NCBI GenBank assembly: GCA_964001285.1
Contig: CAXFAF010000006.1
Coordinates: forward strand, 8,205-72,204
DNA: 64,000 nt
Reading direction: 5' to 3'
Source: an uncultured bacterium
Lineage (GTDB): Bacteria > Pseudomonadota > Alphaproteobacteria > MED-G09
Of this stretch, positions 24,108-40,159 are shown one piece after another. Numbering within the stretch: the first letter of the stretch is position 1; each line of letters begins with the position of its first letter. The notes beneath the pieces are model-generated. The model saw only the letters and a list, made by a program, of their open reading frames with translations, did not search any database and was not told where the DNA came from. The position numbers and the translations under genes are program-made.

Positions 24108-25361
24108 TTATGTAGTATTTTTTGGGTTTTTTAAAAAAACTAAGGGTAAGAGACAAATTACTGATGTAATTAAATATATATTATTGACTGTAATATTTAA
24201 AACTCCATCAAAAATTCCAACCATTGTTTCTCCTCCAATTCTTGATATATGTCTAGCACTCATAAAAATAGCAAATAGAGAAGCTGCTGAGGCCGAAATT
24301 GATAATCTCATACATAATGAGAGCACTGCAGTCATTCCAAAAGAACTCAAGAATGAAAAAGCAAGTAATATACTTATTCCAAGAAATTCACTTTTTAGAA
24401 TGTTGGTATAAATTCCTATTATTAAGCACAATATCGCTAAACCAATTTGTGAAAATCTAATTATTGCTTGTGGATTAATTTTATCTGATAAATAGCCGCC
24501 AATCAAAGCAGCAATAACACCACCATATAAAGCTGCTGATCTAAGTTTGGTTAGATCATAAGATTCCCATTCAGCATAATTTATGTATAAAAAAGAAATG
24601 GAAGAAAAATGAATTCCTGAGGCAAGATTAGAAGTTAAGCAAAATAAAAGTAACAGGAAAATAAATTTATTTGAGATACTACTAACAATAGTGGATAAAA
24701 TTCCTGAAAATTTTAAATTTATAGTTTCATTTCCATCATAATGATAAGAGCCTAATGAAAAAAATTTATCAGATTGTTTTTCTTTGATAAAAAATAAAAG
24801 AATTCCTATTAAAGCAATTGCTATACCTAGATAAAACATTGCTTCGCCCAATCCATAGTTATTTATAATAATGGATGAAAATATTGCTGATATACTAACC
24901 CCTAAGGTTCTGAAGGCCCACATCAATCCATTAACAAAACCTCTCTCGTTTTCATTTAAAATGTCAATAGCCATTCCATCGGTTGCAACATCAAGTATTG
25001 AGGTTGCTAGGATTGTAGAAAATAGTGTTATACCAAGAATTAAAGGATCGATATTTTGACTGGTTAAGAATGCTGCAAAAATTAAAGTCTCACTCATCAT
25101 TAGAGTAGAAATGATTATCCATGGCCTTCTTTTGCCCATCAAGGAATTAGAAAAATAATCAACAAATGGACCTATTAAAAATTTTAAAGACCAAGGAATT
25201 GAGGCTATTGCAGTTATTATAGCAATATCTTTTATAGTAAACCCATTTCCAGCTAACCAATCCAATAAAGCAAAATATATAAGGCCTTGTGGAACGCCCT
25301 GAAGAAAGTATAGTAAACACAAAGAGGTTCGTTTGTATTTTTGACTATTTATAAAAAACAA
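24108..25361 (-). CDS. MFS transporter (AmpG / BT1 folate-biopterin-like architecture)
   Basis: 12-14 predicted TM segments. Conserved N-terminal pattern LYFLQGVPQGL...IPWSLKFLIGPFVDY...GKRRPW resembles AmpG/BT1-type MFS permeases. Family assignment is tentative. Confidence 0.7.
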   Translation of the reverse strand: MFFINSQKYKRTSLCLLYFLQGVPQGLIYFALLDWLAGNGFTIKDIAIITAIASIPWSLKFLIGPFVDYFSNSLMGKRRPWIIISTLMMSETLIFAAFLTSQNIDPLILGITLFSTILATSILDVATDGMAIDILNENERGFVNGLMWAFRTLGVSISAIFSSIIINNYGLGEAMFYLGIAIALIGILLFFIKEKQSDKFFSLGSYHYDGNETINLKFSGILSTIVSSISNKFIFLLLLFCLTSNLASGIHFSSISFLYINYAEWESYDLTKLRSAALYGGVIAALIGGYLSDKINPQAIIRFSQIGLAILCLIIGIYTNILKSEFLGISILLAFSFLSSFGMTAVLSLCMRLSISASAASLFAIFMSARHISRIGGETMVGIFDGVLNITVNNIYLITSVICLLPLVFLKNPKNTT

Positions 25362-25378
25362 GATTTACACCTATAATT

Positions 25379-26101
25379 TTAATTTTCTTGTTCTTCTTGA
25401 TTTTTTACTTTCTGAGTTATTTCTCTTTCAATTCCTAAAGCAAAATCTGAAACATAAGGATTAGTTAACCTTTCTTGACCAAAGGTTGATAAAGGTCCAT
25501 GCCCAGGAATAAATGTCATTTCATCTCCTAATGGCCATAATTCATTAACTATCGAATTTACTAATTGTTCATGATTACCTCTGGGCAAATCTGATCTTCC
25601 TATGGAACCTTGAAAGATAACATCTCCAACTACTGCTAATTGGGCTTTTTCATGAAAGAAGATAATGTGGCCAGGTGTATGCCCAGGACAATGTCTAACA
25701 CCTAATGTTTGATTGCCTATTGTTACTTCATCACCATTTTTTAGATATCTTGTTGTTTCAAAAGATTGGGCCCCCTTTAAACCAAATCTTTCTCCCTGCT
25801 CAGACAGGCTTTCCATTAGAAAAAGGTCTTCTTCATGAGGACCTTCTATAGGAACATTTAACATTTTAGAAAGTTCATTTGCCCCACCTGCATGGTCAAG
25901 ATGAGCATGAGTGATCAAAATTTTTTCAACTGTTATATTATTGTCTTGAACCATCTTAAGAATGTTATCTAAATCTCCACCAGGATCAAAAATAGCTCCT
26001 AATGATGTTTCAACGCACCATACAATTGAACAGTTTTGTTGAAAAGGAGTAACAGGAACAACAACTGCTCTAATTGGTTTTGATTGATTGTTTTCTTCCA
26101 T
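25379..26101 (-). CDS. MBL-fold hydrolase, glyoxalase II / YcbL(GloC)-like
   Basis: THAHLDHAGG (HxHxDH), CPGHTPGH, and downstream GDVIFQGSIGRSDLPRG ... IPGHGP match small hydroxyacylglutathione-hydrolase-like MBL proteins. Confidence 0.8.
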   Translation of the reverse strand: MEENNQSKPIRAVVVPVTPFQQNCSIVWCVETSLGAIFDPGGDLDNILKMVQDNNITVEKILITHAHLDHAGGANELSKMLNVPIEGPHEEDLFLMESLSEQGERFGLKGAQSFETTRYLKNGDEVTIGNQTLGVRHCPGHTPGHIIFFHEKAQLAVVGDVIFQGSIGRSDLPRGNHEQLVNSIVNELWPLGDEMTFIPGHGPLSTFGQERLTNPYVSDFALGIEREITQKVKNQEEQEN

Positions 26102-26104
26102 AAA

Positions 26105-26812
26105 TTAAGAGAAAATTTCCCTAAAAAAATTATCCATTGCCTCAAAAGATCTATCATTAGCGTCTTTGTTAAATGCCATACCGTCTTCAGGTGAGTCAGC
26201 TAATGGATTAGTAAATGCATGGCTTGTACCCCCATAAGCATGAATTTGCCAATCTGCTTTTGCTTTTGTGAGTTCATTAGCTAGCCCATTTACTGCATCG
26301 TGCGGAACCATAGGGTCATCATTGCCATGTAAAACTAAAACTTTAGATGTAATAGTGTTTCCATCCGTATTTCCAGGAGGCGTAAATAAACCATGGAAAG
26401 AAACAACTCCTCCAATATTAGAGCCTGTTCTTGCTAGGTCAAGAACGCATAAACCTCCAAAACAAAATCCTATAGCCCCAGACTTGGACTCATCTATTCC
26501 AACTTTTTCAATAGCTGTTTTATGTGCTAGATTTATTCTTCTTTGAAGAAGCTCTCTATCATCTAGGACTACTTGCATGAGTCCCATATTTTCTTCAGGA
26601 CTTGATCCAACTTTACCTTCTCCATACATATCTACAGCGAAACCAGAATATCCTAATTCATTCATCATCTGAGCTTTTTCTAGAGTAAAATCATCTCTTC
26701 CGGCATATGAGGGTACTACTAGAACCAGCGGGCTGCTATCAGGATTATCTGTTGGGAAAAGAACTCCCTCTAGTCGAACATCATTGTCAAAGTAATCTAC
26801 TTTTTCACTCAT
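26105..26812 (-). CDS. Dienelactone hydrolase family protein
   Basis: Alpha/beta hydrolase with a Cys nucleophile elbow GFCFGG, a His near the C-terminus and a conserved Asp. 235 aa. Confidence 0.8.
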   Translation of the reverse strand: MSEKVDYFDNDVRLEGVLFPTDNPDSSPLVLVVPSYAGRDDFTLEKAQMMNELGYSGFAVDMYGEGKVGSSPEENMGLMQVVLDDRELLQRRINLAHKTAIEKVGIDESKSGAIGFCFGGLCVLDLARTGSNIGGVVSFHGLFTPPGNTDGNTITSKVLVLHGNDDPMVPHDAVNGLANELTKAKADWQIHAYGGTSHAFTNPLADSPEDGMAFNKDANDRSFEAMDNFFREIFS

Positions 26813-26833
26813 AATTTATCTCCTAATTTGTTA

Positions 26834-27607
26834 CTATTCTGGCATAGCGCCTGAGGTGACAGACATTGCATTATCAACTCTTAATTGTGCGCCATTCATA
26901 AATTTTGATTCATCTGAGGCAAGATATAATGCCGCATAAGCGATATCCATTGGTTCACCAGTTTTACTTGCAGGTGCATCCTGATTAGGTGGATTGTCCC
27001 CAAATTTTGCATCCATTTTTTCAGGAACACTTGCAACCATTGGTGTGGCGATTCCTGAAGGATGAATTGAGTTACATCTCACACCATTCTTTTTTAAACC
27101 GCAATGAACTGCAACAGCTCTAGTGTAAGCCTCAATTGCGCCTTTAGCCGCACAATAGGCGGCAACATAAGATTCACCTTGAACAGAAGCTATTGAACAC
27201 ATATTGACAATTGATCCACCACCTGTTTCTGCCATAACTGGGATTGAATATTTGCATCCAAAGAAAGTGCTATCCATATGAACAGCCATAGTAAACCTAT
27301 ATTCTTCTGTTGTCTGATTTTCTGGATCGCCGACTTCAACTATTCCAGCATTATTAACAAGAACATCCAGTCTACCATGAAGTTTAACGGTTTCGGAAAT
27401 TACCTCTTTCCATCTTTCTTCATCGGTCACATCTTGTTGCATAAAAGTAGCACCAATTTCTTCAGCTAATTTTTTTCCTTCATCTTCGGCAACATCAGTT
27501 AAAACAACTTTAGCACCTTCACTAGCAAATAATTTAGCATCTGCTGCACCCAAACCCATAGCTGCACCAGTGATAATTGCTACTTTGTTTTCAAGTCTTC
27601 CTGCCAT
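26834..27607 (-). CDS. Short-chain dehydrogenase/reductase (candidate cis-dihydrodiol dehydrogenase)
   Basis: Coenzyme site TGAAMGLGAADA, catalytic YCAAKGA (YxxxK) and NNAG. Lies immediately downstream of a Rieske oxygenase. Confidence 0.85.
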   Translation of the reverse strand: MAGRLENKVAIITGAAMGLGAADAKLFASEGAKVVLTDVAEDEGKKLAEEIGATFMQQDVTDEERWKEVISETVKLHGRLDVLVNNAGIVEVGDPENQTTEEYRFTMAVHMDSTFFGCKYSIPVMAETGGGSIVNMCSIASVQGESYVAAYCAAKGAIEAYTRAVAVHCGLKKNGVRCNSIHPSGIATPMVASVPEKMDAKFGDNPPNQDAPASKTGEPMDIAYAALYLASDESKFMNGAQLRVDNAMSVTSGAMPE

Positions 27608-27625
27608 ACTAATCCTCCTATTTTA

Positions 27626-29014
27626 TTAAGTATTATTTTCGTTTAAATATTTATCTACCATTAGATGTAAATGTCTTGTTCTCGATTCTTGATAATTGCC
27701 TAAAGTTTGAGCACCCTTTGGACTAGCTTTAAAGCCCTTTGTTTGTGATAAAAGATTGTTTGTGTCTTGATCATATACAGCCCCTAAAAAACCAGTTCCT
27801 TCACATAAAGTATAACTATCATTTATATCCAAGTATTGAGGTTCCGGTGGTAGGGGATGATCTTCACCAGGAATTTTTGGTCGTAAAAATAAGAGATCAA
27901 ATATTGCATGATCTACTCCATCTGGTCTAAATCTATATACCATCGGTAATTGAAGCCCTGGAAAAAAGAAAGCATTAGGAAAAACAAAATATTCTATTGA
28001 ATCAATAGTTTCTGTAACGCTTAAGTGAGAAAAGTCAGATTTATATTTTTCACTCATTTCTTCTTGAACAATTCTTGCATAAACTTCTCTTGCAGTGCTT
28101 CCTTCGGGAACTTTTATTTCACCCGAATCATCATCGAGTCTTCTACCAAGAAGAATATCTAATATTCCTTGTTGGTCAGGTCGGTTATCAGTCACATGAG
28201 GGCTTGTATAGCCTATAGTATGAACAAAACGGGTGATATGATCACCAAAAATGTCATAATCTGCATTAGCATCACCTGCAGTCATAACGCCTTCAGAATG
28301 GGTTTCTAAAACATGATAAGCTTCTAGAAATGCTTCTGCAGAAGCCTTCCAGTTAGCTGGAAGCCTTTTAACTACATGTGTTTCTATATATCTATCTTCA
28401 AGATTCCAATTCTTAAAATGTTCAGGTAACACACCAAGATAATCATTTAAAGGTTTTGCATTTTGGTCAAAATTTACGAAAACAAAACCACCCCAAATAT
28501 CACATTTTAGCTCTGGCAAACTATATTCCTCTTTATTAACATGAGGAAAATCCCAATCGCACGGAAGAAATTCTAGTTTTCCAGAGAGTGACCATGTCCA
28601 GCCATGAAATGGGCATCTAAGTTCTTTGCATATTCCTGAAGTTCCTGAAGGTTTTAATTGCGTTCCCCTATGTAAACATGAATTATAATATGCCTTTATC
28701 TCATCTTTCTCAGATCTAACAATTATTGCTGAAAGATCACCTACATCATAAACATAATAGTCTCCAATTTCTGGAATATGATCAACATGGCAAGCCCACT
28801 GCCATACTCTTGACCACATATGGTCATTTTCTTTTTTTGCGAATTCTTCAGAGATATATCTTTCAAATGGTATGTCTGCATCGCTTATAAATTCATAAGA
28901 CTCTTCCAAAATAGGTGCTGGAGCCCCTGTGCAATCTCTACTTACCAATTCTTTGGTAGATGGATGATCAGGACATCTTGCTTCACCTGGTTTTAGATTT
29001 TTAAGTTCGCTCAT
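27626..29014 (-). CDS. Rieske [2Fe-2S] non-heme-iron oxygenase, alpha subunit (paralog 1)
   Basis: Rieske CLHRGTQL...CPFHGW and mononuclear-iron motif EAYHVLETH (Hx4H). 462 aa. First gene of a minus-strand operon. Confidence 0.88.
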   Translation of the reverse strand: MSELKNLKPGEARCPDHPSTKELVSRDCTGAPAPILEESYEFISDADIPFERYISEEFAKKENDHMWSRVWQWACHVDHIPEIGDYYVYDVGDLSAIIVRSEKDEIKAYYNSCLHRGTQLKPSGTSGICKELRCPFHGWTWSLSGKLEFLPCDWDFPHVNKEEYSLPELKCDIWGGFVFVNFDQNAKPLNDYLGVLPEHFKNWNLEDRYIETHVVKRLPANWKASAEAFLEAYHVLETHSEGVMTAGDANADYDIFGDHITRFVHTIGYTSPHVTDNRPDQQGILDILLGRRLDDDSGEIKVPEGSTAREVYARIVQEEMSEKYKSDFSHLSVTETIDSIEYFVFPNAFFFPGLQLPMVYRFRPDGVDHAIFDLLFLRPKIPGEDHPLPPEPQYLDINDSYTLCEGTGFLGAVYDQDTNNLLSQTKGFKASPKGAQTLGNYQESRTRHLHLMVDKYLNENNT

Positions 29015-29193
29015 GGCTTAAAACCCCCAAATTTATAATGACGATATAACAATAATCTCATATACGAAATACTAAATTTATAAAAATATCAATTTCTTAA
29101 TAAATTATTGACTTTTAGGGGTATTTTTAAAAAATATAATAATATTCTTCAAATTTTGATGTTTATATGTAGACTAGGTCCTATGTTTAGTGG

Positions 29194-29198
29194 GGAGG
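29194..29198 (+). promoter_or_regulatory. Shine-Dalgarno (GGAGG) for the TonB-dependent receptor
   Basis: GGAGG lies 5-6 nt upstream of the ATG at 29204, and a signal peptide begins at that ATG. Confidence 0.6.
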
Positions 29199-29203: not shown

Positions 29204-31402
29204 ATGAAAAAACTAACTATATTTTTTGTTGCTTGTATTTTAGCTATTACAGGCAGTGTTATGGCTGATGAGGGTGAGAACCTACAAAGTTCAGCTAGCA
29301 ATTCTTCAAGTTCTGCAACTAGTCAATCCAATGCTGGTTTGGAAGAGATAGTAGTTACTGCTCGTAAGAGGGAAGAAAGTCTTTTAGATATTCCTGAATC
29401 AGTAGTAGCAATATCAGGATTAAGTATTGATCGTCAAAATATTAAAGGTCTTGATAAAATTGGGTTAGCCATTCCAAACCTTAATCTCGCTATGCGTACA
29501 GATGGATATCCAAATGCTTCCATTAGGGGTATTGGTGCTTTTGGTTTAACACAAGGTGTAGGTTTTTATATTGATGATGTTCAATTATTTAGTGATGCTT
29601 CATCAAGATTTGGAGACTTAGAAAGAATAGAGGTTATAAAGGGTCCACAAGGAACCTTATATGGAGGTAGTAATATTGGTGGAGCCATTAAGTATGTTAG
29701 TAAACGTCCAGATTCAAACGAAACCTCTGGAAGATTAAAACTTCTTGGTGGTGAGCAAGGCGTAATAGATGTTGAAGCTTCTGTTAATATGCCCATTGGT
29801 GATAATGGTTGGGCAATTAGAGTATTTGGGTTTACTAGAGAAGATGATGGATTTATGTATAATCCTAATTCTGATAATGTTGACAATCAAGACCCTGATG
29901 TAGGCGCTTATGACGAAAGTGGAGGGCGTTTATCAATTGCTGGTCAACTTTCGGATAATCTATCACTCTACGCTTCACTTCGCTACAATGAGTATAACGG
30001 CCCAGTAAATAATTGGGCGAGGGAATTAGGTAGTGCACCTAATTTCACTTATCCAAAGACTTTAGATGCGGGTTTAAACCCAACTCATGAAAGAGAAACT
30101 TTTGGAGCACATTTAGAGTTAGTTTTTGAAAGAGAAGGTTATGATGTTACTTCTGTAACCTCCTATACAGATACTGAAAGCACTCGGATTACAGATGTTG
30201 ATTTAACTCAATTCTGGTTTATGAACACATATAGACCCGAAGAATTTGAAATTATAACTCAGGAGATACGATTTACATCAACAACAGAAAGTAATTTTCA
30301 ATGGATAGCAGGTGTTTATGCTTCAAAATATACAAATAATATGGATTCATATTTACACTTCGGTCCGGGGATTATTCTACCTGATAGTGATTTTATTCTA
30401 CCATTTGAATTACGTGACGAAGAAAATACCCATTTAGCAGCTTTTGCTAATATTTCGTATGAAGAAGGTGATTGGAAGTTAGATTTAGGTTTAAGAATAG
30501 ATAGTTGGGAAGAGGATGAAGATAACCTCGATATAGAAACAAATGGAGCACTTCATGCTGGTGTAATTAATGATACTGAAGTTTTACCTCGTATTTCTGT
30601 GACAAGAAATCTGGAGAATGACTCCATGGCTTATTTAACAATATCCAAGGGCTTTGAGCCAGGAGGATTAAATGGATCTACTCCAATTTTAGGTCCTGAT
30701 GGTTCACCAACTCTTTTAGAATTTCAACCTGAAGAAGCCCTTCAATATGAAATTGGCTGGAAAGGGAGTTTTGCAGAAGGTAGAGGTACAGCATCTGTAG
30801 CCGCCTTCTTTATTGATTATAAGAAAAGAGCTTATCAAGTCTTAACCCCTAATCCAAATGGACCAGGTTTGATAGAGGGCATAACGAATGTAGGTAACTC
30901 TGAACAACATGGTGTTGAGTTTGAATTAGCTTATCAATTTAACGAAAGCCATTCGATAAGTCTTGCTGGAGGTATGATTGATGCTGAGTGGGATAATAAT
31001 ACAGTAGCCAATGATACTGATTTAAGCGGTCTGACGCCAGCGAATGTAATCGAGAATAGTTTTTCAATTAACTATAGTTACGATAAACTTCTTGCTAATG
31101 ATATGAATCTCATTGCAGATATTCAATTAAGTCATCAAGGAGAAGGTAAGAGTATGCCGCCTTGGGATTCTATAAATAATCCAGATTACACCGTAATAAA
31201 CATTCAGGCAGGAATAATAAGGGGTCCTTGGGAGTTTATGTTGAATTTGGATAATGCTACTGATGAAGAGTATTATACAGATTTAGAAAATTTCCCTAAT
31301 TTTGGATTTGGCAGCCCTGATATCGAAACGCATCCTACAATTGTTATTGGTACTTATGGTCATCCAAGAATATTATCTGCTAGTTTGACATATAATTTTT
31401 AA
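29204..31402 (+). CDS. TonB-dependent outer-membrane receptor
   Basis: Signal peptide MKKLTIFFVACILAITGSVMA, plug region EEIVVTARKRE..., a long beta-barrel and a C-terminal aromatic residue (...LTYNF). Start chosen at the ATG at 29204 with GGAGG 6 nt upstream; the ORF-track start at 29108 is rejected. Confidence 0.88.
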   Translation: MKKLTIFFVACILAITGSVMADEGENLQSSASNSSSSATSQSNAGLEEIVVTARKREESLLDIPESVVAISGLSIDRQNIKGLDKIGLAIPNLNLAMRTDGYPNASIRGIGAFGLTQGVGFYIDDVQLFSDASSRFGDLERIEVIKGPQGTLYGGSNIGGAIKYVSKRPDSNETSGRLKLLGGEQGVIDVEASVNMPIGDNGWAIRVFGFTREDDGFMYNPNSDNVDNQDPDVGAYDESGGRLSIAGQLSDNLSLYASLRYNEYNGPVNNWARELGSAPNFTYPKTLDAGLNPTHERETFGAHLELVFEREGYDVTSVTSYTDTESTRITDVDLTQFWFMNTYRPEEFEIITQEIRFTSTTESNFQWIAGVYASKYTNNMDSYLHFGPGIILPDSDFILPFELRDEENTHLAAFANISYEEGDWKLDLGLRIDSWEEDEDNLDIETNGALHAGVINDTEVLPRISVTRNLENDSMAYLTISKGFEPGGLNGSTPILGPDGSPTLLEFQPEEALQYEIGWKGSFAEGRGTASVAAFFIDYKKRAYQVLTPNPNGPGLIEGITNVGNSEQHGVEFELAYQFNESHSISLAGGMIDAEWDNNTVANDTDLSGLTPANVIENSFSINYSYDKLLANDMNLIADIQLSHQGEGKSMPPWDSINNPDYTVINIQAGIIRGPWEFMLNLDNATDEEYYTDLENFPNFGFGSPDIETHPTIVIGTYGHPRILSASLTYNF

Positions 31403-31423
31403 TAGCAAAAAATATTAAATAAA

Positions 31424-31450
31424 AAAGGCTCTTTAAAAGAGCCTTTTTTT
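31424..31450. terminator. Bidirectional rho-independent terminator
   Basis: AAAAAA-GGCTCTT-TAAA-AAGAGCC-TTTTTTT: a perfect 7-bp GC-containing stem flanked by an A-run and a T-run, placed between the convergent TBDR (+) and MBL (-) genes. Confidence 0.75.
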
Positions 31451-32327
31451 ATGAGCTATCCGGGTGTTTGACTTCATAAATAAAGTGATCGTCTTTTCTT
31501 TTTACATATCCTGCAGATGGTGTAGCGAAATGTGTGCCAAAAACCAAAATATTTTCATCTGCATATTCTTCAAGTTTTTTTCTTCTCGTTTTTTTAGCAA
31601 GTTCTTTATCCCAATCAGCACTTGATTCCCAATCCAATCTCTCCATTTGACAGGGATGATGTAAAAAATCACCAGTTATTGCTGCCTTTATACCTTGTGC
31701 CTCAATACAAACGCTTACATGACCAGGGGTATGGCCAATTGTAGGTTCAAGGTGAATTCCTTCGCAAATTTTTTCATCCATATCTACGAACTTGACTAAC
31801 CCGGAGTCAATGATTGGTATTATTGAGTCATTTATAAATTCTGCATACCTATGATCGTTTAATTGTTTTTCTGTATGTTCCCATTCTTTCTTGCCGAAGA
31901 GATAATCAGCTTTTTTAAAAGTTGGTTCCCATTTATCATCTACAAGTACTGTATTCCACCCAACATGATCGGTGTGCATATGCGTACATAAAACAGTATC
32001 TATCTTATCAACAGAGTACCCTGATGTTTCTAAGTCTTCTAAAAATCTTGTTTGTAACATATTCCATTGGGGAATATGTCTTTCCTTATCATTTCCAAGA
32101 CATGTATCAACAATTATGCATTTTTCATTTGTTTCAATTATCAGGGCATGAATGCTTACAATTGTATTTCCTTCACTATCAGAAAAGTAAGGTTGTAGCC
32201 ATGGCATTTTCAGGATTTCTTCAGGTACCGCATCAGGAACAACAAACATTGGCCCAGCTCTTTCACCTTCAATAATTCTTGTTATTTTTATATCGCCAAT
32301 ATTCCAACTACTGATTTTATTATTCAT
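31449..32327 (-). CDS. MBL-fold metallo-hydrolase (lactonase-like)
   Basis: CTHMHTDHVGW (HxHxDH), GHTPGH, TGD and GTHF supply the full metallo-beta-lactamase ligand set. 292 aa. Confidence 0.8.
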   Translation of the reverse strand: MNNKISSWNIGDIKITRIIEGERAGPMFVVPDAVPEEILKMPWLQPYFSDSEGNTIVSIHALIIETNEKCIIVDTCLGNDKERHIPQWNMLQTRFLEDLETSGYSVDKIDTVLCTHMHTDHVGWNTVLVDDKWEPTFKKADYLFGKKEWEHTEKQLNDHRYAEFINDSIIPIIDSGLVKFVDMDEKICEGIHLEPTIGHTPGHVSVCIEAQGIKAAITGDFLHHPCQMERLDWESSADWDKELAKKTRRKKLEEYADENILVFGTHFATPSAGYVKRKDDHFIYEVKHPDSS

Positions 32328-32329
32328 TA

Positions 32330-32629
32330 TTATCCTGGATAATCAATTTGGTTGGCTTCATAAAATTTTGCATCAGTTTCTGGTGGATCACTTGCAAGTG
32401 CTCCAATGAAAGTTGCCACATGATCTGTTTTTAAATGATCCTTAAGTGATTGCAAATCTTCCCATAATTCAGTTATCCTTATATTAGCTTTGTTATGAAG
32501 CTCAACACTAAAGGCATAATCCACGCAGCCATTCTCTTCTCTGGTTTTGATCTCTAATTGTTGTACAGCTTCCTTTACTGTTTCAAAATTATTATCGTTT
32601 GTTTTCATTATTGCATTTACTACAATCAT
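32330..32629 (-). CDS. ABM (antibiotic biosynthesis monooxygenase / Dabb) domain protein
   Basis: 99 aa ferredoxin-like ABM fold, pattern ...VKEAVQQLEIKTREENGCVDYAF...ELWEDLQSLKDH. Confidence 0.7.
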   Translation of the reverse strand: MIVVNAIMKTNDNNFETVKEAVQQLEIKTREENGCVDYAFSVELHNKANIRITELWEDLQSLKDHLKTDHVATFIGALASDPPETDAKFYEANQIDYPG

Positions 32630-32773
32630 TTAGACCTCCTAATTTTTTAATTTTATTATCCCAAAATCATTATTTATTAATACATTTAAAACTTACAACA
32701 CATTTGTTTATTTTTTTTATTTTGTACTATTACTTTTTTTAGATAATATCTAATCATTAATTGGGGGAAATTA

Positions 32774-34144
32774 GTGCCACAACGCTTTGATCATATAGAT
32801 TTTTCTGACCAAATAACGGCGGATCCTAAGCATAATGCTAAGTTATCTAGTGATAGATATACTTGTCCTGATTTTATGCAATTAGAATGGGAAAAGATTT
32901 GGACTCAGTGTTGGTTATTTGCAGGTTTGGAATCTGATATTCAAGATGTGGGTGAATTTTTTGTTTATGATATAGGAAGAGAGTCAATAATAGTTACTCG
33001 AAATGAGAACAACAAAATTTCTGCATTTTATAATAGTTGCCAACATAGAGGTAACAAGATTTTAACTCAAGAATCTGGTTGGGTTAAACAAGTATCTTGT
33101 CCCTACCATGGTTGGACCTATGGTTTAGATGGAGAGCTTAAGAAAGTTCCCGATGCAGAATTATTCGAAGATAATGTTTTATGCGAAGAAAATTCCTTGA
33201 AATCTGTTTGTGTAGAGACTTGGGCGGGTATGATTTTTATAAATATGAGTGAGAATCCAGCCTCTCTTAGAATTTTCTTAGGAAAAATCATGGATCAACT
33301 TGGTCCATATCATTTTGAGAATATGCAACTAGTAAAACATCAGAGTGTAACATTGGATACGAATTGGAAAACAGTAAGGGATAATTTTTTAGAACAATAT
33401 CATGTTGATTTCATTCACCCCCAGCATGCTAGTTTCGTTGATTGTTGTGATGCACAAAATTATCTATGGCCTTTCGGTCATACTCACACATGTGTTGAAA
33501 GTCCCGTAATGAATCCTCGATATCCCATGCCAGAAGAGCCACCTGAATACATGATTCAATATCTCAAAGGTTTGGAGCTTAATCCAGATGATTATCATGG
33601 TAAGGTTCCAGAAATTAGAAAGGTTATTCAAAAACAAAAAAGAGTAATTGGCAAAAAACTTGGTTTTGATTATTCGGAACTTTCCGATGAGCAGGTTTCC
33701 GATGTTTTTCAATATGATATTTTTCCAAATTTATTTATGACAATTCATGCTGAGAGGGTTTGGCTTTATGGCCCTAGACCCCACCTTTCGGATCCAAATA
33801 AATGCACTTTTACAAAATTTAGCTTAATGCTGCCGGAAGATAAAATTCGAGATGAAAAAAAGGGTTTAGAGCTCCTTCCTGGTTCTTATGATTATGAGTA
33901 TTCTGAAACAAGAGTAGAGCATGAAGTTTTTACAAGACAAGATGTAATAGAAGGACGAAATTCTATGACTGTTACTATAGACCAAGACATTCATTATCTT
34001 AATGATATGCAGGCAGGTATGCATTCCCGTGGTTTTGACAAAGCTATTTTAAGTGATGATGAAGAAAGATTACAGCATTTCCATAACTGGGTTGATAATT
34101 GGTTAAGTGACAATTCATCTTGGTCTAAAATAAGTCAATCATAA
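32774..34144 (+). CDS. Rieske non-heme-iron oxygenase alpha subunit (paralog 2)
   Basis: GTG start with GGGGGAAA upstream. Rieske CQHRGNKI...CPYHGW and Fe site EQYHVDFIHPQH. 456 aa. Confidence 0.85.
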   Translation: MPQRFDHIDFSDQITADPKHNAKLSSDRYTCPDFMQLEWEKIWTQCWLFAGLESDIQDVGEFFVYDIGRESIIVTRNENNKISAFYNSCQHRGNKILTQESGWVKQVSCPYHGWTYGLDGELKKVPDAELFEDNVLCEENSLKSVCVETWAGMIFINMSENPASLRIFLGKIMDQLGPYHFENMQLVKHQSVTLDTNWKTVRDNFLEQYHVDFIHPQHASFVDCCDAQNYLWPFGHTHTCVESPVMNPRYPMPEEPPEYMIQYLKGLELNPDDYHGKVPEIRKVIQKQKRVIGKKLGFDYSELSDEQVSDVFQYDIFPNLFMTIHAERVWLYGPRPHLSDPNKCTFTKFSLMLPEDKIRDEKKGLELLPGSYDYEYSETRVEHEVFTRQDVIEGRNSMTVTIDQDIHYLNDMQAGMHSRGFDKAILSDDEERLQHFHNWVDNWLSDNSSWSKISQS

Positions 34145-34161
34145 TAAGAGCCTAGCAAATT

Positions 34162-35559
34162 ATGAGTGATACGAAATTACCAAAAAAAACTTTGTTCTTC
34201 TATGGTCTTTCAGAGATGCCATTATCGATTGCTTCTCTTCCTTTGTTGGCTTTTATACCAAATTATTATGTATCAGATTTAGGGCTTGATTTTGCTGTTG
34301 TCGCATTAGTTATGCTTTTGGCTAGATCATTTGATGCCGTTACTGATCCCTTGATTGGGTATTTAAGTGATAGGACTGATACGCGATGGGGAAGAAGACG
34401 GATATGGATGTTTTTATCAATCCCTATTTTAATGATAGCGGCTTATAAAATATTTTTTCCTCAAAATCTTTGGGAATTTGTTCCTTTTAGTCTCGATTTT
34501 CTTTCTTTGAATTTAGGAGCAGGGGGTCACTATCTTTTGTTTTGGTTTTTAGTGCTTTGGTTTGGATGGAGTATGCTTTTTATTCCTTATTATTCTTGGG
34601 CTGCAGAATTATCTTCAGATTATAATGAAAGATCGACTATTGTTGGCTGGCGCATGTTTATTGGGACATTTGGTAATGCCATATCCAAATTTTTACCGGC
34701 TATTGCTTTGTTATTTTTTGCTTATGGGGGAGCCGAGGAGACTATTATAATTATTGGAGCTGTTTTTCTTTTGGTTATTCCAATTTGTATAAGTTTATCA
34801 ATTTTCAATGTCCCTGAGAGAATGGATTATCAGACCAAGCAGGGGTCTATTAAAGAAGGTCTAAAGGCTATGTGGAAGAACAAAGCCTTTAGGCAGTTAA
34901 TTTTTGCATACTTTTTTAATTATATAGGGGTAACTCTTTCAACTTTAACAGTTATGTTTTTTATTAGGGGTGTTACAGGAGAAGAAGAGCAAGGTATTCT
35001 TTATTTCATTTTTTACTATGTTGCTAATCTTATTGGAATTCCCTTTTGGCTTTGGCTTTCAAAAAAAATAGGAAAACATAATGCCTGGAAGATAGGCTTA
35101 GGTGTCTTCACAGTAATGCAGCCATGTTATTTTTTCCTGGGTCAGGGAGATTATTATTGGATGTTTCCAATTACTACAATTGCTGGTTTAGCAGGATCAA
35201 CATTTCATCTTATACCGCATGCCATGAAGGCAGATGTTATAGATTATGATACTTATCTTACTGGTGAAGATAGAGCAGCACAGTTTTTTGCCGCATGGTC
35301 ATTTATAACGAAAATGGCTATTGCTATTGCCCCATTTTTTGCCTTCACATATTTAGATTTAATAGGCTTTAACTCTACGCCCGGAGCAATAAATAGTCCG
35401 GAGCAAATACTGGGGTTAAAAATATTATTTTGTTTTGCCCTTCCGCTATTTCTAATAATCGCTATTTTGTGTGTTCGTGATTATCCTATTACACAAGCAA
35501 AACAAGAAGAGATTCGAAAAGAGATAGAAACTCAAAAAAAACAATTACAAGGAGTATAA
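34162..35559 (+). CDS. GPH-family (glycoside-pentoside-hexuronide:cation symporter, MelB-like) MFS transporter
   Basis: The N-terminal signature FYGLSEMPLSIASLP...DAVTDPLIGYLSDRTDTRWGRRR is diagnostic of GPH/MelB-type symporters. 12 TM. Confidence 0.85.
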   Translation: MSDTKLPKKTLFFYGLSEMPLSIASLPLLAFIPNYYVSDLGLDFAVVALVMLLARSFDAVTDPLIGYLSDRTDTRWGRRRIWMFLSIPILMIAAYKIFFPQNLWEFVPFSLDFLSLNLGAGGHYLLFWFLVLWFGWSMLFIPYYSWAAELSSDYNERSTIVGWRMFIGTFGNAISKFLPAIALLFFAYGGAEETIIIIGAVFLLVIPICISLSIFNVPERMDYQTKQGSIKEGLKAMWKNKAFRQLIFAYFFNYIGVTLSTLTVMFFIRGVTGEEEQGILYFIFYYVANLIGIPFWLWLSKKIGKHNAWKIGLGVFTVMQPCYFFLGQGDYYWMFPITTIAGLAGSTFHLIPHAMKADVIDYDTYLTGEDRAAQFFAAWSFITKMAIAIAPFFAFTYLDLIGFNSTPGAINSPEQILGLKILFCFALPLFLIIAILCVRDYPITQAKQEEIRKEIETQKKQLQGV

Positions 35560-35560
35560 A

Positions 35561-36082
35561 ATGAGCGACGCTTTAGAAAGAGTTATTGCAAAATCTGAAA
35601 TTTATGATCTTTCATGCAAATATATGAGAGGTCTAGATAGATTAGATATAGAATTGTTGAAATCTGTTTTTCATGATGGTGCTTGGTGCGATTATGGTTT
35701 TACAAAAAGTGATGCTCCAACATTTGCTCAATTCTGTATGGATGCACTCAAAGAACATCATGCTAATCATCATATGATTGGTAATGTTTTGATAGAATTC
35801 AGCGACAATAAAGATGAAGCTTTTGGTGAAGTCTATTTTCAGGCTTATCACAAAGTTGATGAAGACGGTCAAATGAATGATGTTTTTATTTCTGGACGAT
35901 ATCTTGATCGTTATGAAAAAAGAGATGGTATTTGGAAGATGGTATACAGATCTGAAATTGTAGATTGGTCACGAACTGAACCAACCCATGAACCATATTT
36001 TGATTCAGCTCCAGATTGTTTTCGAGGTGGTCGTCAAGATGATAGAGTTTATGATACTAAAGATAGATATAATCCAAATTAA
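35561..36082 (+). CDS. SnoaL_4 / NTF2-like domain protein (paralog A)
   Basis: 173 aa, with IYDLSCKYMRGLDRLDIELLKSVFHDGA (NTF2-like SnoaL_4 pattern). Paralogous to 44901..45434; C-terminal regions align (SGRYLDRYEKRDGIWK vs SGRYIDRFERRNGEWK). Confidence 0.75.
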   Translation: MSDALERVIAKSEIYDLSCKYMRGLDRLDIELLKSVFHDGAWCDYGFTKSDAPTFAQFCMDALKEHHANHHMIGNVLIEFSDNKDEAFGEVYFQAYHKVDEDGQMNDVFISGRYLDRYEKRDGIWKMVYRSEIVDWSRTEPTHEPYFDSAPDCFRGGRQDDRVYDTKDRYNPN

Positions 36083-37423
36083 TTAATTTTTAACTACCCT
36101 TACATTTTTTCTTCTCGATTTTGAAGAAGGTTGTAGTGCGAGACTCAACTGATCATCGTTAATTTCATATGGGATGTCATTTACTAAAAGATCTTTATAA
36201 AATTTACCATCTTTCATAACTGATACAATGCGATCGTGATCTTGGAGTACTGTTATATCTTCTAATGGGTTACCATCTATAACAACTAAATCAGCAAGTT
36301 TTCCTTCTTCCAGGGTTCCTAAGGAACCATCTGGGTGCATAGCTAACCCACCTAATCTTGTAGCTGAATGAATAGCTTCTGCATTAGTAAATCCAAAATG
36401 AGTTACATAATATTCTAGATCCTTTGCATATGTTCCATGAGGTGTGATGTTGAGACCATAATCACCTCCAACAAGAATACGAATACCAGCAGCCTGCATT
36501 TTTTTATAAGAAATAATCGTTTCTTCAAGTTCTTTCTTATAAGCTATCACTTCCCTGCTGTTTTCATCAAAACCCATATCTTTATAATTTTCTAGGAAGG
36601 TAATTTCCCAAGCTATTGCAGGACCAACAAATACTTTATCTTTATTCTTAACAAGAAGATCAAGTGCCTCATCATCGATATAATTTGCGTGACCAATGAA
36701 GTCTATACCAGCTTTGACAGCCTGTTTAACAGCTTCGGACGATCTTGCGTGACAAGCAACTCTCATTTTTTTTCTATGTGCCTCATCAACAATTACTTCT
36801 ACCTCTTCATCTGTGAAGCCTAAATCACCGGGCCTTCCTTGAAGTGATATAATTTCTCCATCTATCATAACCTTCACTATTTCTGCCCCATTTTTCCATA
36901 ACTGTCTTACCGCTGCTCTTAATTCCCATGGTCCATTCCTTATCATGCCCAAACCTTCTGGAACGATTTGTACATTGTCTGGATAAAAATCAGAATTTCC
37001 TCCTGTAGCAGAAATATCTTTACTTCCAGCTAGAAGACGAGGTCCTGGAATTTCTCCTCTTTCAATAGCTTCTTTTAAAAAGACATCAATTTTATGAACA
37101 GAACCAAAACTAATTGCTGACGTGAAACCAGATCCCAACATCAATCTCGCGTTGGAAATAGTTTTAATCATGGACTCTTCAACAGGAGCTTTGTCTAATT
37201 CCAATGGTCCACTGTTCGAATAAGAAATATGAGCATGTGCTTCAACCATACCAGGCATCACAAATAAACCATTACCATCGATGGTTTGAATATTGTCAGG
37301 AATATCTTCTAAGTTCTTTGAAGGTCCAGCATAGCGAATTAAGTTATTTTCAATCCAAATTGAAGAATCTTCTATAAGTTTATCGCCAGTCCCATCAAAC
37401 AATCTTATGTTTGTTATTAACAT
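36083..37423 (-). CDS. Metal-dependent amidohydrolase family protein
   Basis: 446 aa, with an N-terminal HxH metal site (PGMVEAHAHISY) and the TIM-barrel amidohydrolase layout. Confidence 0.8.
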   Translation of the reverse strand: MLITNIRLFDGTGDKLIEDSSIWIENNLIRYAGPSKNLEDIPDNIQTIDGNGLFVMPGMVEAHAHISYSNSGPLELDKAPVEESMIKTISNARLMLGSGFTSAISFGSVHKIDVFLKEAIERGEIPGPRLLAGSKDISATGGNSDFYPDNVQIVPEGLGMIRNGPWELRAAVRQLWKNGAEIVKVMIDGEIISLQGRPGDLGFTDEEVEVIVDEAHRKKMRVACHARSSEAVKQAVKAGIDFIGHANYIDDEALDLLVKNKDKVFVGPAIAWEITFLENYKDMGFDENSREVIAYKKELEETIISYKKMQAAGIRILVGGDYGLNITPHGTYAKDLEYYVTHFGFTNAEAIHSATRLGGLAMHPDGSLGTLEEGKLADLVVIDGNPLEDITVLQDHDRIVSVMKDGKFYKDLLVNDIPYEINDDQLSLALQPSSKSRRKNVRVVKN

Positions 37424-37434
37424 CTTAATTCCTT

Positions 37435-38415
37435 TTAGTTTTCCAATCTAAGAAGTTTTTTTGCATTATTTGTTAAATCTGGAGCAAAATCTTCTAATTT
37501 TTTTGGCGTATCCCAACCCCCAAAATTGGTACCATAAACTAATCTATCTTCTCCAATTAAGTCAAATAACATTTTTTGAGACTTTTCTCCATGTACATGT
37601 GCGTCGAACCACAAACGCTTGAGTTCATTGACAAATCCATTCTTTTTAACACCCTCAGGAGCCCAATCACGGAATTCAGACATTTCAGAAAAACGCTCTA
37701 TCAAATATGGCATTGCACCTCCACCATGTGATATACAAATATCCAAATCAGGATGACGATCCATAACACCTCCAATAATAAGTGTAGCTACAGCAAGTGT
37801 TTCTTCATATGCATAACCTAACATAATACTCATATCGTATCGTCCCATTCGCCAATCATCAGGACCTTCTGCACCACCAGTAGAGGCAGGGTGTAAGAAT
37901 AAAGGGATATTAAGATCAATTACAGTTTTGTAGAAATCATCTAATCTTGGATCATCAAGTCCAAAAGGATAATCTGTACCTGTTGATACGGCCACAAGCC
38001 CAAGATCCTTAACTGCTCGTTCAAGTTCTTTACATGCTAAATCAACATCTTGCATTGGTAAAGTAGCGGATCCTAATAACCTATCAGGATATTCATTAAT
38101 TGATTCTACCATTGCATCATTATGAATTTTACAAAACTCATTAGCAACATCTCCTTCAATCCTGTGGAACATAGTTAATGGATTGGGAGATAGTAACTGT
38201 AAATCAATTCCTAATTTATCCATGGCTTCGATACGAAGGTTATTTTCCATAAAAATAGTTCCTTCATATTGCATTGGCTTCATTTTATATTCACCAATAC
38301 GAAAATAAGGGATCCCATTTTCATCTAGACCTGTTTCAGGGCCATATTTTCCAGCTTTACCAAAAGCTTTACCCAGAACAATATGGGCGTGAGTATCAAT
38401 TACATTTATTGTCAT
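37435..38415 (-). CDS. Amidohydrolase_2 family protein (ACMSD / LigI / LigW-like decarboxylase-hydrolase)
   Basis: N-terminal IDTHAH, internal FLHP, ISHGGG and Asp positions typical of the ACMSD superfamily. 326 aa. Confidence 0.8.
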   Translation of the reverse strand: MTINVIDTHAHIVLGKAFGKAGKYGPETGLDENGIPYFRIGEYKMKPMQYEGTIFMENNLRIEAMDKLGIDLQLLSPNPLTMFHRIEGDVANEFCKIHNDAMVESINEYPDRLLGSATLPMQDVDLACKELERAVKDLGLVAVSTGTDYPFGLDDPRLDDFYKTVIDLNIPLFLHPASTGGAEGPDDWRMGRYDMSIMLGYAYEETLAVATLIIGGVMDRHPDLDICISHGGGAMPYLIERFSEMSEFRDWAPEGVKKNGFVNELKRLWFDAHVHGEKSQKMLFDLIGEDRLVYGTNFGGWDTPKKLEDFAPDLTNNAKKLLRLEN

Positions 38416-38420
38416 TTTTT

Positions 38421-38771: not shown

Positions 38772-38780
38772 GTTTTTCTC

Positions 38781-40118: not shown

Positions 40119-40159
40119 CTACACACCTAAATTTTTTATAATCTTTCTTTCTATTAAAT

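What the first reader, a model, noticed from the sequence alone, without database searches (positions are those of the whole stretch)
29204..31402. TonB-dependent receptor in an otherwise streamlined, ABC/TRAP-style genome context
A full-length TBDR (signal peptide, plug, C-terminal Phe) is unusual for SAR11-like streamlined genomes, which generally lack outer-membrane TonB-dependent transporters. It implies uptake of a substrate too large or too scarce for porin diffusion (for example an oligomeric aromatic, a chelate or a large polar metabolite). That substrate would then be handled by the adjacent oxygenase operons. No tonB or exbBD is in the window.
Basis: partly seen in the sequence, partly recalled or inferred. 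Interest (0 to 1): 0.55.

Follow-up and report, generated by a model that had tools for sequence, protein, structure and literature searches.

The report
Outer-membrane receptor gene with swapped core
The gene is a real TonB-dependent outer-membrane transporter, but the genome belongs to the PS1/OCS116 group of marine alphaproteobacteria, where such receptors are routine, not to SAR11; the only unusual point is that the middle of the gene has been exchanged for a very different version whose closest named relatives are in SAR86 gammaproteobacteria.

Summary
Window 29204-31402 (+) encodes an intact 732-aa TonB-dependent transporter with a signal peptide, TonB box EEIVVTA, plug, 22-strand barrel and C-terminal Phe. 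It has its own promoter-like site, ribosome-binding site and terminator.

The framing does not hold. The window is not SAR11-like. It comes from a PS1/OCS116-group alphaproteobacterium. Related single-cell and metagenome genomes carry a receptor in exactly this slot, plus paralogs elsewhere, and published metatranscriptomes report abundant receptor transcripts from an OCS116 genus.

No siderophore, B12 or SusC-type membership test is met. Relatives in alpha- and gammaproteobacteria repeatedly sit beside Rieske oxygenase, SnoaL, amidohydrolase, SDR and MFS genes. Uptake of an aromatic or alicyclic organic substrate for the adjacent enzymes is therefore the best reading, as in DdvT/DdvK/LigXa of Sphingobium. 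The substrate is unknown.

The new point is that the gene is a mosaic. Codons 1 to about 70 and the last 10 or so are the resident type. The core is only about 52% identical to the receptor in the same slot of sister lineages, whose neighbouring genes are 80-96% identical. It is 72-74% identical to SAR86 receptors. Both core types occur on near-identical flanks in one related lineage.

The host's tonB/exbBD could not be checked. Interest is modest.

The parts
29108..29135 (+). Promoter-like site (TTGACT, 16 nt, AAAAAT) in the 189-nt divergent intergenic region between the Rieske gene and the receptor gene
   Evidence: Consensus scan only, 9 of 12 matches. This is weak evidence. The region has no Fur box above chance and no riboswitch.
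29192..29198 (+). Ribosome-binding site GGGGAGG, 5 nt before the ATG
   Evidence: Read directly from the sequence.
29204..31402 (+). TonB-dependent outer-membrane transporter gene, 732 aa
   Evidence: ORF. Pfam Plug plus barrel. Model and Foldseek matches. The same allele is 99.6-100% identical in 10 independent assemblies.
29204..29408 (+). Resident-type 5' segment: signal peptide (aa 1-21), Ser-rich linker (aa 22-45), TonB box EEIVVTA (aa 47-53) and the conserved stretch up to about aa 70
   Evidence: The N-terminus aligns with the PS1/OCS116 same-slot alleles (L017, L005, L007), not with SAR86. In the L035 versus L005 pair the 5' breakpoint falls at window position about 29409.
29409..31373 (+). 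Exchanged core: most of the plug and nearly the whole barrel, about 1.96 kb
   Evidence: Nucleotide identity to syntenic loci falls from about 80% to 54-75% exactly here. Amino-acid identity is 52% in the barrel and 69% in the plug versus the same-slot allele, against 71% and 92% versus SAR86.
31374..31402 (+). Resident-type 3' end: last codons of the final strand (...SASLTYNF) and the stop codon
   Evidence: Over the last 58 nt or so, identity to PS1/OCS116 alleles is 86-90%, against 77-81% to SAR86. The L035 to L005 comparison returns to 95-98% from here.
31421..31449 (.). Perfect 14-nt inverted repeat flanked by A and T runs. It would act as a bidirectional terminator between the receptor gene and the convergent metallo-beta-lactamase-fold gene
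24108..29014 (-). Divergently transcribed gene row: Rieske oxygenase alpha (27626-29014), SDR (26834-27607), dienelactone hydrolase (26105-26812), metallo-beta-lactamase-fold hydrolase (25379-26101) and an MFS_1 transporter (24108-25361)
   Evidence: Pfam. Syntenic in L005-L008 and L020 at 64-90% amino-acid identity.
31449..40960 (.). Rest of the conserved island next to the receptor: MBL-fold lactonase-like gene, ABM, Rieske alpha, GPH/MFS_2 symporter (34162-35559), SnoaL_4, Amidohydro_1, Amidohydro_2 (ACMSD/LigW-like), ABM, Rieske alpha, SDR
   Evidence: Pfam, NCBIfam and PDB searches. 79-97% amino-acid identity to the syntenic loci.

Best explanation
Window 29204-31402 is a functional, separately transcribed TonB-dependent outer-membrane transporter. 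It sits inside a conserved catabolic island rich in Rieske oxygenases, in a PS1/OCS116-group marine alphaproteobacterium. 

The most likely role (inferred) is import of a scarce or bulky organic substrate, probably aromatic or alicyclic, across the outer membrane, using energy from the host's TonB-ExbB-ExbD complex through its TonB box. One of the two MFS-type transporters in the island would then carry the substrate across the inner membrane. The island's Rieske oxygenases, SDRs, lactonase-like hydrolases and ACMSD/LigW-like amidohydrolase would degrade it. 

The gene is a mosaic (shown). The signal peptide, linker, TonB box and last few codons are those of the lineage's resident receptor. 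The plug-and-barrel core belongs to a different, deeply diverged allele class whose closest named relatives are in SAR86 gammaproteobacteria. The exchange most likely happened by recombination at the two conserved ends of the gene (inferred). Both core classes persist in related lineages.
For: Identity of the gene:
- Pfam Plug plus barrel.
- TonB box, signal peptide and C-terminal Phe read from the sequence.
- A 22-strand model that matches solved transporters.
- An intact, 99.6-99.9% identical core in 10 independent assemblies.

Host lineage:
- Exact protein matches to a MAG labelled Rhodobiaceae.
- About 21 kb of synteny with PS1 and OCS116 single-cell genomes.

Organic rather than iron or vitamin substrate:
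- No NCBIfam siderophore, haem, B12 or copper model reaches its cut-off. The best is TIGR01783 at 133 bits against a cut-off of 223.5.
- No STN signalling domain.
- No Fur box above chance and no riboswitch.
- The neighbouring transporters are MFS and GPH types, not a binding-protein ABC system.
- Family members in SAR86, Halieaceae, Luminiphilus and three unnamed lineages also sit beside Rieske, SnoaL_4, glyoxalase, Cupin_7, amidohydrolase, SDR and MFS genes.

Mosaic structure:
- Neighbouring proteins are 80-96% identical to the syntenic loci, but the receptor only 54-56%.
- Nucleotide identity drops exactly at the gene.
- All PS1/OCS116-labelled receptors form one clade that excludes the window allele (300 of 300 bootstraps). 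The window allele is 72% identical to SAR86.
- The N-terminus is of the resident type.
- L035 carries a window-type core on flanks 96-98% identical to L005, which carries the other core. The breakpoints correspond to window positions of about 29409 and 31374.
Against: - The substrate is unknown. No neighbouring enzyme reaches an NCBIfam equivalog cut-off, so 'aromatic or alicyclic' rests on family-level similarity and gene neighbourhood only.
- Automated source names for homologs say 'iron complex outermembrane receptor protein'. These are generic labels, but they cannot be excluded experimentally.
- No tonB, exbB or exbD was seen in the window, in about 18 kb beyond its two ends, or around the related receptors.
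- The sister relation to SAR86 has only 57% bootstrap support. The C-terminal third of the core is about equally distant from unnamed lineages. The donor is therefore not identified and the direction of transfer is inferred.
- The trees are neighbour-joining, not likelihood-based.
Confidence: 0.7

Rival explanations
1. It is an ordinary iron-siderophore, metal or vitamin receptor that happens to lie next to catabolic genes.
For: The best NCBIfam match is the siderophore-receptor subfamily TIGR01783 (E 1e-38). The closest solved structures are siderophore receptors such as FyuA, FoxA, FhuA and PiuA. JGI names homologs 'iron complex outermembrane receptor protein'. The island encodes four iron-sulfur oxygenases, which need iron.
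Against: The TIGR01783 score of 133 bits is far below its cut-off of 223.5, and every equivalog model is far below its own. Identity to all solved receptors is only 12-19%, and solved structures are heavily biased towards siderophore receptors. There is no STN domain, no FecIR, no Fur box above chance and no cobalamin or TPP riboswitch. There is no periplasmic binding protein or ABC importer nearby. The link to Rieske, amidohydrolase and MFS genes recurs across classes.
Confidence: 0.15
2. The low identity to the same-slot receptor of sister lineages comes from fast in-place divergence, for example phage-driven diversifying selection, and not from replacement by a foreign allele.
For: Synonymous sites are saturated between the window and L005/L007 for all genes, so dS cannot separate the two models for that pair. 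The receptor's dN is 0.37 against 0.02-0.13 for its neighbours. Divergence from the PS1-type allele is greatest in the extracellular loops and outer strand halves, at 43-45% identity, as expected for surface-exposed parts.
Against: The window core is much closer to SAR86 (72%) and to unnamed lineages with 47% GC (66%) than to the same-slot allele (55%). All PS1/OCS116 paralogs form a 100%-supported clade that excludes it. L035 and L005 have flanks 96-98% identical but cores 40-79% identical, with sharp breakpoints. Within the window's own population the core is 99.6-99.9% identical, so it is not hypervariable. The plug differs as well (69% versus 92%).
Confidence: 0.07
3. The mosaic is an assembly or binning artefact: a SAR86-like receptor wrongly joined into an alphaproteobacterial contig.
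For: The window comes from metagenome-type data. The contigs that carry the related P0002 allele are short, at most 2.9 kb.
Against: The same junctions occur in 10 contigs of 20-131 kb from different samples, projects and assemblers. They also occur in a sister species (L001), with core and flanks equally diverged at 90-93%. The core is only 71-72% identical in nucleotides to SAR86, so it is not a co-assembled SAR86 read set. The reading frame is continuous through both junctions.
Confidence: 0.02

Closest known systems
DdvT, with DdvK and LigXa/LigZ/LigY, of Sphingobium sp. SYK-6: outer-membrane uptake of the lignin-derived dimer 5,5'-dehydrodivanillate (PMC6874591)
   Same: A TonB-dependent receptor with a hydrophobic-xxT TonB box lies next to a catabolic cluster. 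That cluster holds a Rieske-type oxygenase, an amidohydrolase-superfamily enzyme and an MFS inner-membrane transporter. There is no siderophore machinery. The window's Amidohydro_2 protein matches LigW/LigW2 (about 80 bits) and LigY (60 bits) in the PDB, although ACMSD is the best match at 129 bits.
   Different: The island here has no MarR-type or other regulator. The enzyme set differs: MBL-fold lactonase-like, dienelactone hydrolase, ABM, SnoaL_4, a KstD/ChcC1-like flavoenzyme and a P450. The host is a small, low-GC pelagic oligotroph, not a soil sphingomonad. The substrate is unknown.
The copious TonB-dependent receptors of SAR86 (Dupont et al. 2012, as cited in PMC7575717)
   Same: These are the closest named sequence relatives of the window's core, at 72-74% identity. 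In SAR86 the gene is also transcribed divergently from a Rieske, SnoaL_4 and Amidohydro_2 gene row.
   Different: The host is an alphaproteobacterium. The signal peptide, linker and TonB-box segment are not of the SAR86 type. The neighbouring genes are only 22-47% identical to the SAR86 neighbours.
Solved siderophore transporters: FyuA (4epa), FhuA, FoxA, PiuA, FptA
   Same: The same fold, with plug plus 22-strand barrel. TM-scores are 0.74 normalised to the query and 0.86 to the target for FyuA.
   Different: Identity is 12-19%. None of the family models is passed. None of the iron-regulation or signalling features is present.
Divergent allele classes of outer-membrane receptor genes within one species, for example the fpvA receptor types of Pseudomonas aeruginosa (recalled from general knowledge, not tested here)
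   Same: Deeply diverged receptor alleles occupy one chromosomal locus in otherwise similar genomes.
   Different: Here only the plug-and-barrel core is exchanged, with no linked siderophore biosynthesis locus. One allele class is shared across proteobacterial classes. The selective cause is unknown.

Membership tests
TonB-dependent transporter (TBDT/TBDR) | N-terminal plug domain (PF07715) | tested here: met
   48.1 bits against a cut-off of 23.9, aa 60-161.
TonB-dependent transporter (TBDT/TBDR) | 22-strand beta-barrel (PF00593) | tested here: met
   114.5 bits against a cut-off of 27. The AF2 model has 22 strands. Foldseek probability is 1.00 to FyuA, FhuA, FoxA and others.
TonB-dependent transporter (TBDT/TBDR) | TonB box near the mature N-terminus | tested here: met
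   EEIVVTA at aa 47-53. V51, T52 and A53 are invariant in 36 homologs.
TonB-dependent transporter (TBDT/TBDR) | Sec signal peptide and C-terminal aromatic residue for outer-membrane insertion | tested here: met
   Read from the sequence: MKKLTIFFVACILAITGSVMA|DEG and ...SASLTYNF. No signal-peptide predictor was available.
TonB-dependent transporter (TBDT/TBDR) | Cognate TonB-ExbB-ExbD complex encoded in the same genome | not testable with these tools
   None was found in the window, in about 18 kb beyond its two ends, or in L001-L025.
TonB-dependent siderophore receptor (TIGR01783 and equivalogs FhuA, FepA, CirA, FoxA and others) | Score at or above the curated cut-off | tested here: not met
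   TIGR01783 scores 133.1 bits against 223.5. All equivalogs score 62 bits or less against cut-offs of about 470-1300.
FecA-type transducer with FecIR | N-terminal STN signalling domain and an adjacent ECF sigma / anti-sigma pair | tested here: not met
   Only Plug and barrel domains were found. Between the signal peptide and the TonB box there is a 24-aa Ser-rich linker instead. No sigma or anti-sigma factor appeared in the Pfam scans of the window.
Fur-regulated iron uptake gene | Fur box in the promoter | tested here: not met
   The best match has 7 mismatches of 19, which is the mode of shuffled sequence. The E. coli consensus was used, which may not suit alphaproteobacteria.
BtuB (vitamin B12 receptor) | Family score and an upstream cobalamin riboswitch | tested here: not met
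   TIGR01779 scores 52 bits against 599.7. No Rfam match at gathering thresholds in the window, and none at E<=1 in 28950-29350.
SusC-like carbohydrate transporter | Adjacent SusD-like lipoprotein, an N-terminal extension domain and a length of about 1000 aa | tested here: not met
   The protein has 732 aa with only Plug and barrel. The neighbours are Rieske and MBL-fold genes. The defining features are taken from general knowledge.
DdvT-like receptor for aromatic catabolites | Placement beside a Rieske oxygenase catabolic cluster with an MFS inner-membrane transporter | tested here: met
   The arrangement recurs in homolog neighbourhoods. This shows analogy of arrangement, not membership.
DdvT-like receptor for aromatic catabolites | Sequence orthology to DdvT and demonstrated uptake of an aromatic substrate | not tested
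   The DdvT sequence is not in the PDB search set and could not be fetched. Uptake needs an experiment.

The most novel reading that the evidence does not exclude
Two ancient versions of the receptor's plug-and-barrel core (about 52% identical in the barrel) are kept side by side at one fixed slot of a conserved catabolic island in abundant PS1/OCS116 ocean bacteria. Each version has diverged along with its host lineage. They are swapped by recombination at the conserved TonB-box and last-strand ends, and one version is shared with SAR86 across class boundaries. This would be a long-lived balanced polymorphism of an outer-membrane nutrient gate in streamlined oligotrophs. It could be maintained by phage or predator pressure, or by different substrate ranges. 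The extracellular half is conserved between the window type and SAR86 (77-79%) but not between the two alphaproteobacterial versions (43-45%), which hints that the versions differ in what they bind.
Probability: 0.4. Interest if true: 0.55.

Novelty: new member of a known kind. Interest (0 to 1): 0.3.

Why it matters
As originally framed, it does not matter much. A TonB-dependent receptor in a PS1/OCS116 genome is expected and does not challenge the picture of SAR11-type streamlining.

It has some value for marine carbon cycling. A receptor family with no characterised member is consistently tied to Rieske-oxygenase gene sets in several of the most abundant oligotrophic lineages: OCS116/PS1, SAR86 and Halieaceae. 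It is therefore a candidate entry gate for aromatic or alicyclic dissolved organic matter.

The cleanly bounded core swap, with both versions on near-identical flanks in one lineage, gives a concrete and testable case of cassette-like exchange of an outer-membrane transporter between bacterial classes in the open ocean.

Tried and rejected
- Ton system. Contig look-ups at both window edges added about 9.5 kb and 8.7 kb and showed no MotA_ExbB, ExbD or TonB_C families.
- Literature on PS1/OCS116 Ton systems. Four searches gave only one directly useful statement, in PMC13096325. Another search found nothing relevant.
- Substrate assignment. NCBIfam and PDB searches of the island enzymes gave no equivalog-level match. 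The Rieske proteins score 107-153 bits against GbcA (cut-off 670), the flavoenzyme 420 bits against ChcC1 (cut-off 1000), and the amidohydrolase is closest to ACMSD. A steroid-type reading (KstD-like enzyme, P450, SnoaL) was considered and not adopted, because the Rieske proteins match the general Ring_hydroxyl_A model and nothing reaches a steroid equivalog cut-off.
- Recent transfer of the whole island. Island proteins are 80-96% identical to sister lineages while housekeeping proteins are 67-76%. This was rejected as evidence of transfer because synonymous sites are saturated in both classes. The difference reflects stronger purifying selection.
- Compositional signal of transfer. GC is 36% in the receptor and 35% in its flanks, and the likely donors are also low in GC, so this is uninformative.
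- Identifying the lineages of the 63-70% homologs (P0004-P0023). Their contigs have 37-50% GC and catabolic neighbours but carry no organism names.
- A first bootstrap run with Biopython's distance calculator timed out. It was redone with a numpy implementation.
Full report
**1. What is at the coordinates**

An ORF runs from 29108 to 31402 on the + strand. The real start is almost certainly the ATG at 29204. It follows GGGGAGG (29192-29198) by 5 nt, and homologs begin at the same MKK/MQK. This gives 732 aa.

- Pfam finds Plug (aa 60-161) and TonB_dep_Rec_b-barrel (aa 231-684), both above their cut-offs.
- The sequence shows a signal peptide ending VMA|DEG, a 24-aa Ser-rich linker, a TonB box EEIVVTA (aa 47-53) and the terminal ...SASLTYNF. 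V51, T52 and A53 are invariant in 36 homologs.
- An AlphaFold2 model built on that alignment (pLDDT 76, pTM 0.78) has 22 barrel strands. It matches solved TonB-dependent transporters, with FyuA best at TM 0.74 (query-normalised) and 0.86 (target-normalised). Identity to every solved structure is only 12-19%. Sequence search of the PDB gives only remote hits.
- The gene appears to be a separate transcription unit. There is a promoter-like site at 29108-29135, which is weak evidence, and a perfect 14-nt hairpin with flanking A and T runs at 31421-31449, between the gene and the convergent downstream gene.

**2. Whose genome this is**

The gene order is alphaproteobacterial, judged from general knowledge: sdhAB-zapE-mdh-sucCD-lpdA, priA followed by atpHAGDC without atpBEF, and a DnaX protein with DUF3646. 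GC is 33%.

Window proteins exactly match proteins of an NCBI MAG labelled 'Rhodobiaceae bacterium' (MBJ66048.1, MBJ65441.1, MBJ66065.1).

About 21 kb is syntenic with single-cell genomes and MAGs labelled PS1 clade, OCS116 cluster or Rhodobiaceae (L005-L008, L020, partly L017). The shared order is nadD-proA-proB-obg-rplU, then MFS-MBL-DLH-SDR-Rieske, the receptor, then MBL-ABM-Rieske-MFS_2-SnoaL-Amidohydro_1-Amidohydro_2-ABM-Rieske-SDR. NCBI places both clades in Alphaproteobacteria incertae sedis.

So this is a PS1/OCS116-group genome, not SAR11.

**3. Are receptors unusual in this lineage?**

No.
- The sister genomes carry a receptor in the same slot.
- The same group has at least two other receptor loci. 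One is next to SDR and NmrA genes, with a P450 in some loci (L010-L014, L021; the related L016 in MED801 has no neighbours listed). The other is near an MFS_2 gene (L009, L023).
- These paralogs are 79-86% identical to one another.
- A 2026 metatranscriptome study lists TonB-dependent receptors (K02014) of the OCS116 genus AG-430-B22, the genus named after my locus L020, among the abundant functions at the deep chlorophyll maximum (PMC13096325).

I could not find or test the host's tonB/exbBD. There is none in the window, none in about 18 kb beyond its two ends, and none around the related receptors. The tools did not let me read the rest of the genome.

**4. What it probably transports**

No curated family is met.
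- The siderophore subfamily TIGR01783 scores 133 bits against a cut-off of 223.5. Every haem, B12, copper, PqqU and named-siderophore equivalog scores far below its cut-off.
- There is no STN domain or FecIR pair, no Fur box above chance and no riboswitch.
- There is no binding-protein ABC importer nearby. The island has an MFS_1 transporter and a GPH/MFS_2 symporter instead.

Family members elsewhere have similar neighbours.
- SAR86: a glyoxalase, SnoaL_4, Rieske and Amidohydro_2 row divergent from the receptor and a Cupin_7 gene, with Amidohydro_1, SDR and an AraC regulator nearby.
- Halieaceae and Luminiphilus: Amidohydro_1, SDR and Amidohydro_2.
- Three unnamed lineages: Rieske, SnoaL_4, glyoxalase, Cupin_7, Amidohydro_1/2, SDR, MFS, RPE65 and an FMO-like gene.

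The window's own island has four Rieske alpha subunits, two of them near SnoaL_4 genes. It also has SDRs, MBL-fold lactonase-like proteins, a dienelactone hydrolase, ABM proteins, an ACMSD/LigW-like amidohydrolase, a KstD/ChcC1-like flavoenzyme and a P450. None reaches an equivalog cut-off.

The best-supported reading is uptake of an aromatic or alicyclic organic compound for these enzymes. This parallels the experimentally shown DdvT (receptor), DdvK (MFS) and LigXa (Rieske) system of Sphingobium SYK-6 (PMC6874591). It is inference from neighbourhood. The substrate is unknown.

**5. The unexpected part: a swapped core**

*Divergence against the syntenic loci.* Neighbouring proteins are 80-96% identical to the window and housekeeping proteins 67-76%, but the receptor in the same slot is only 54-56%. 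Nucleotide identity is about 80% in both flanks and falls to 54-75% exactly over the gene. L007 and L005 stay about 91% identical to each other throughout.

*Phylogeny.* In a neighbour-joining analysis with 300 bootstraps, all PS1/OCS116-labelled receptors form one clade (100%) that excludes the window allele. The window allele groups with L001 (97%) and P0002 (87%) at 100% support. Its closest named relatives are SAR86 receptors: 72% over the trimmed alignment and 74% by tblastn. Sister support to SAR86 is only 57%. Similarity to SAR86 is highest over aa 41-520. The last third is about equally distant from unnamed groups.

*Direction of transfer.* The arrangement of receptor next to Cupin_7 and divergent from Rieske, SnoaL_4 and glyoxalase is shared by SAR86 and two unnamed relatives in that large clade; a third unnamed relative (L032) has Cupin_7 and Rieske but not SnoaL_4 or glyoxalase. 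I therefore infer that the core entered the alphaproteobacterial slot from that clade, rather than the reverse.

*The N-terminus is not foreign.* The signal peptide, Ser-rich linker and TonB-box segment match the same-slot PS1/OCS116 alleles: L017 has MQKLTIFFVACFLI..ADEGD.., and SAR86 has MSNNPRNVVFIVFLSLIAFPF... The last 58 nt or so are also of the resident type.

*The clearest case is a related lineage.* The contigs L035 and L036 (allele P0002) carry a window-type core, 80% identical in nucleotides to the window. Their flanks, intergenic region and 5' gene end are 88-98% identical to L005, which carries the other core. Between L035 and L005, 60-nt windows read 0.86-0.98 outside and 0.40-0.79 inside. 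The switches correspond to window positions of about 29409 and 31374.

*Both core types are old.* Window-type cores and their flanks have diverged to similar degrees: window versus L001, 93% against 90-92%; window versus L035, 80% against 79-89%. Both core classes therefore appear to have diverged along with their hosts.

*Assembly error is excluded.* Ten contigs of 20-131 kb from different samples carry the same junctions, with cores 99.6-99.9% identical.

*In-place fast evolution is disfavoured.* The phylogeny and the L035/L005 pair argue against it. For the window versus L005/L007 alone, dS is saturated and cannot decide.

**6. Where the two versions differ**

The model's strands were used to separate outward-facing from inward-facing parts.

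| Region | Window vs PS1/OCS116 same-slot allele | Window vs SAR86 |
|---|---|---|
| Extracellular loops | 43% | 77% |
| Outer strand halves | 45% | 79% |
| Inner strand halves | 63% | 62% |
| Plug | 69% | 92% |

The surface and binding half is thus shared with SAR86 and differs from the other alphaproteobacterial version. This fits a difference in ligand or surface recognition between the two versions, but it is only a pattern. The strand assignment comes from a model of medium confidence.

**7. Verdict**

The gene is a genuine, ordinary member of the TonB-dependent transporter superfamily, in a lineage where such genes are normal. The 'SAR11-like, therefore unusual' interpretation fails. The suggestion of coupling to the adjacent oxygenases is reasonable and is supported by recurring neighbourhoods.

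It applies to the plug-and-barrel core only, within a slot that already held a receptor. The cassette-like exchange, and the coexistence of two old core classes, is the only notable feature. It is of moderate interest to marine microbial population genomics and is not new in kind.

Noticed in passing
window 7585-8889 (-): A 433/434-aa tyrosine recombinase (Phage_integrase domain) lies between lpdA and the transaldolase gene, with its start overlapping the end of the transaldolase gene. It is present at the same place in three independent contigs of this population. It looks like a fixed chromosomal gene rather than a fresh insertion. It is much longer than XerC/D (about 300 aa, from general knowledge).
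   Followed up: partly
window 4135-7581 (+): sucC and sucD are followed directly by lpdA. The 2-oxoglutarate dehydrogenase E1 and E2 genes (sucA, sucB), which usually lie between them in alphaproteobacteria (general knowledge), are absent from the window. A 2-oxoacid:ferredoxin oxidoreductase (POR) lies about 8 kb beyond the right end of the window (L029-L031).
   Followed up: no
window 19155-40118 versus L005 and L007: Island enzymes are more conserved than the adjacent housekeeping genes: dN is 0.02-0.13 against 0.16-0.24, and amino-acid identity 80-97% against 67-76%. Synonymous sites are saturated in both. The catabolic island is therefore under unusually strong purifying selection, rather than recently transferred.
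   Followed up: yes
window 24108-46797: The roughly 23-kb catabolic island has four Rieske alpha subunits, two SnoaL_4, two ABM, a P450 and a KstD/ChcC1-like flavoenzyme. Pfam scans found no transcriptional regulator, ferredoxin or reductase partner for the Rieske or P450 enzymes. The SAR86 counterpart has an AraC-type regulator.
   Followed up: partly
L035 and L036 (contigs carrying allele P0002): The representative sequence of the window-type allele on L005-like flanks (cluster of 124 member sequences) is on record only on two contigs, both of 2.9 kb or less, and both end just outside the gene. This is what an assembly graph does when two divergent alleles coexist in one sample, so it hints at true coexistence.
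   Followed up: partly
L002 9917-17666 (SAR86 LRMED-377): The SAR86 locus has two receptors of this family about 3 kb apart, 74% and 49% identical to the window protein. A Cupin_7 gene, an FAD-linked oxidase and an AraC regulator lie between them.
   Followed up: partly
window 29204-31402 versus L002 (SAR86): Between the window receptor and the SAR86 receptor, the extracellular loops and outer strand halves (77-79%) are more conserved than the inner strand halves and periplasmic turns (50-62%). This is the reverse of the usual pattern for outer-membrane proteins.
   Followed up: partly
window 50775-53026 (-): A NosD-like right-handed beta-helix protein (413 aa) is followed by a 341-aa protein with a weak cytochrome c match. 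A further 298-aa cytochrome c protein lies at 46868-47764. None was examined.
   Followed up: no
window 29108-29203 (+): Gene callers in public assemblies start this gene at three different places, giving 747, 739 or 732 aa. The longest mechanical ORF begins at the TTG at 29108. Only the 732-aa form has a ribosome-binding site and starts with the signal peptide.
   Followed up: yes
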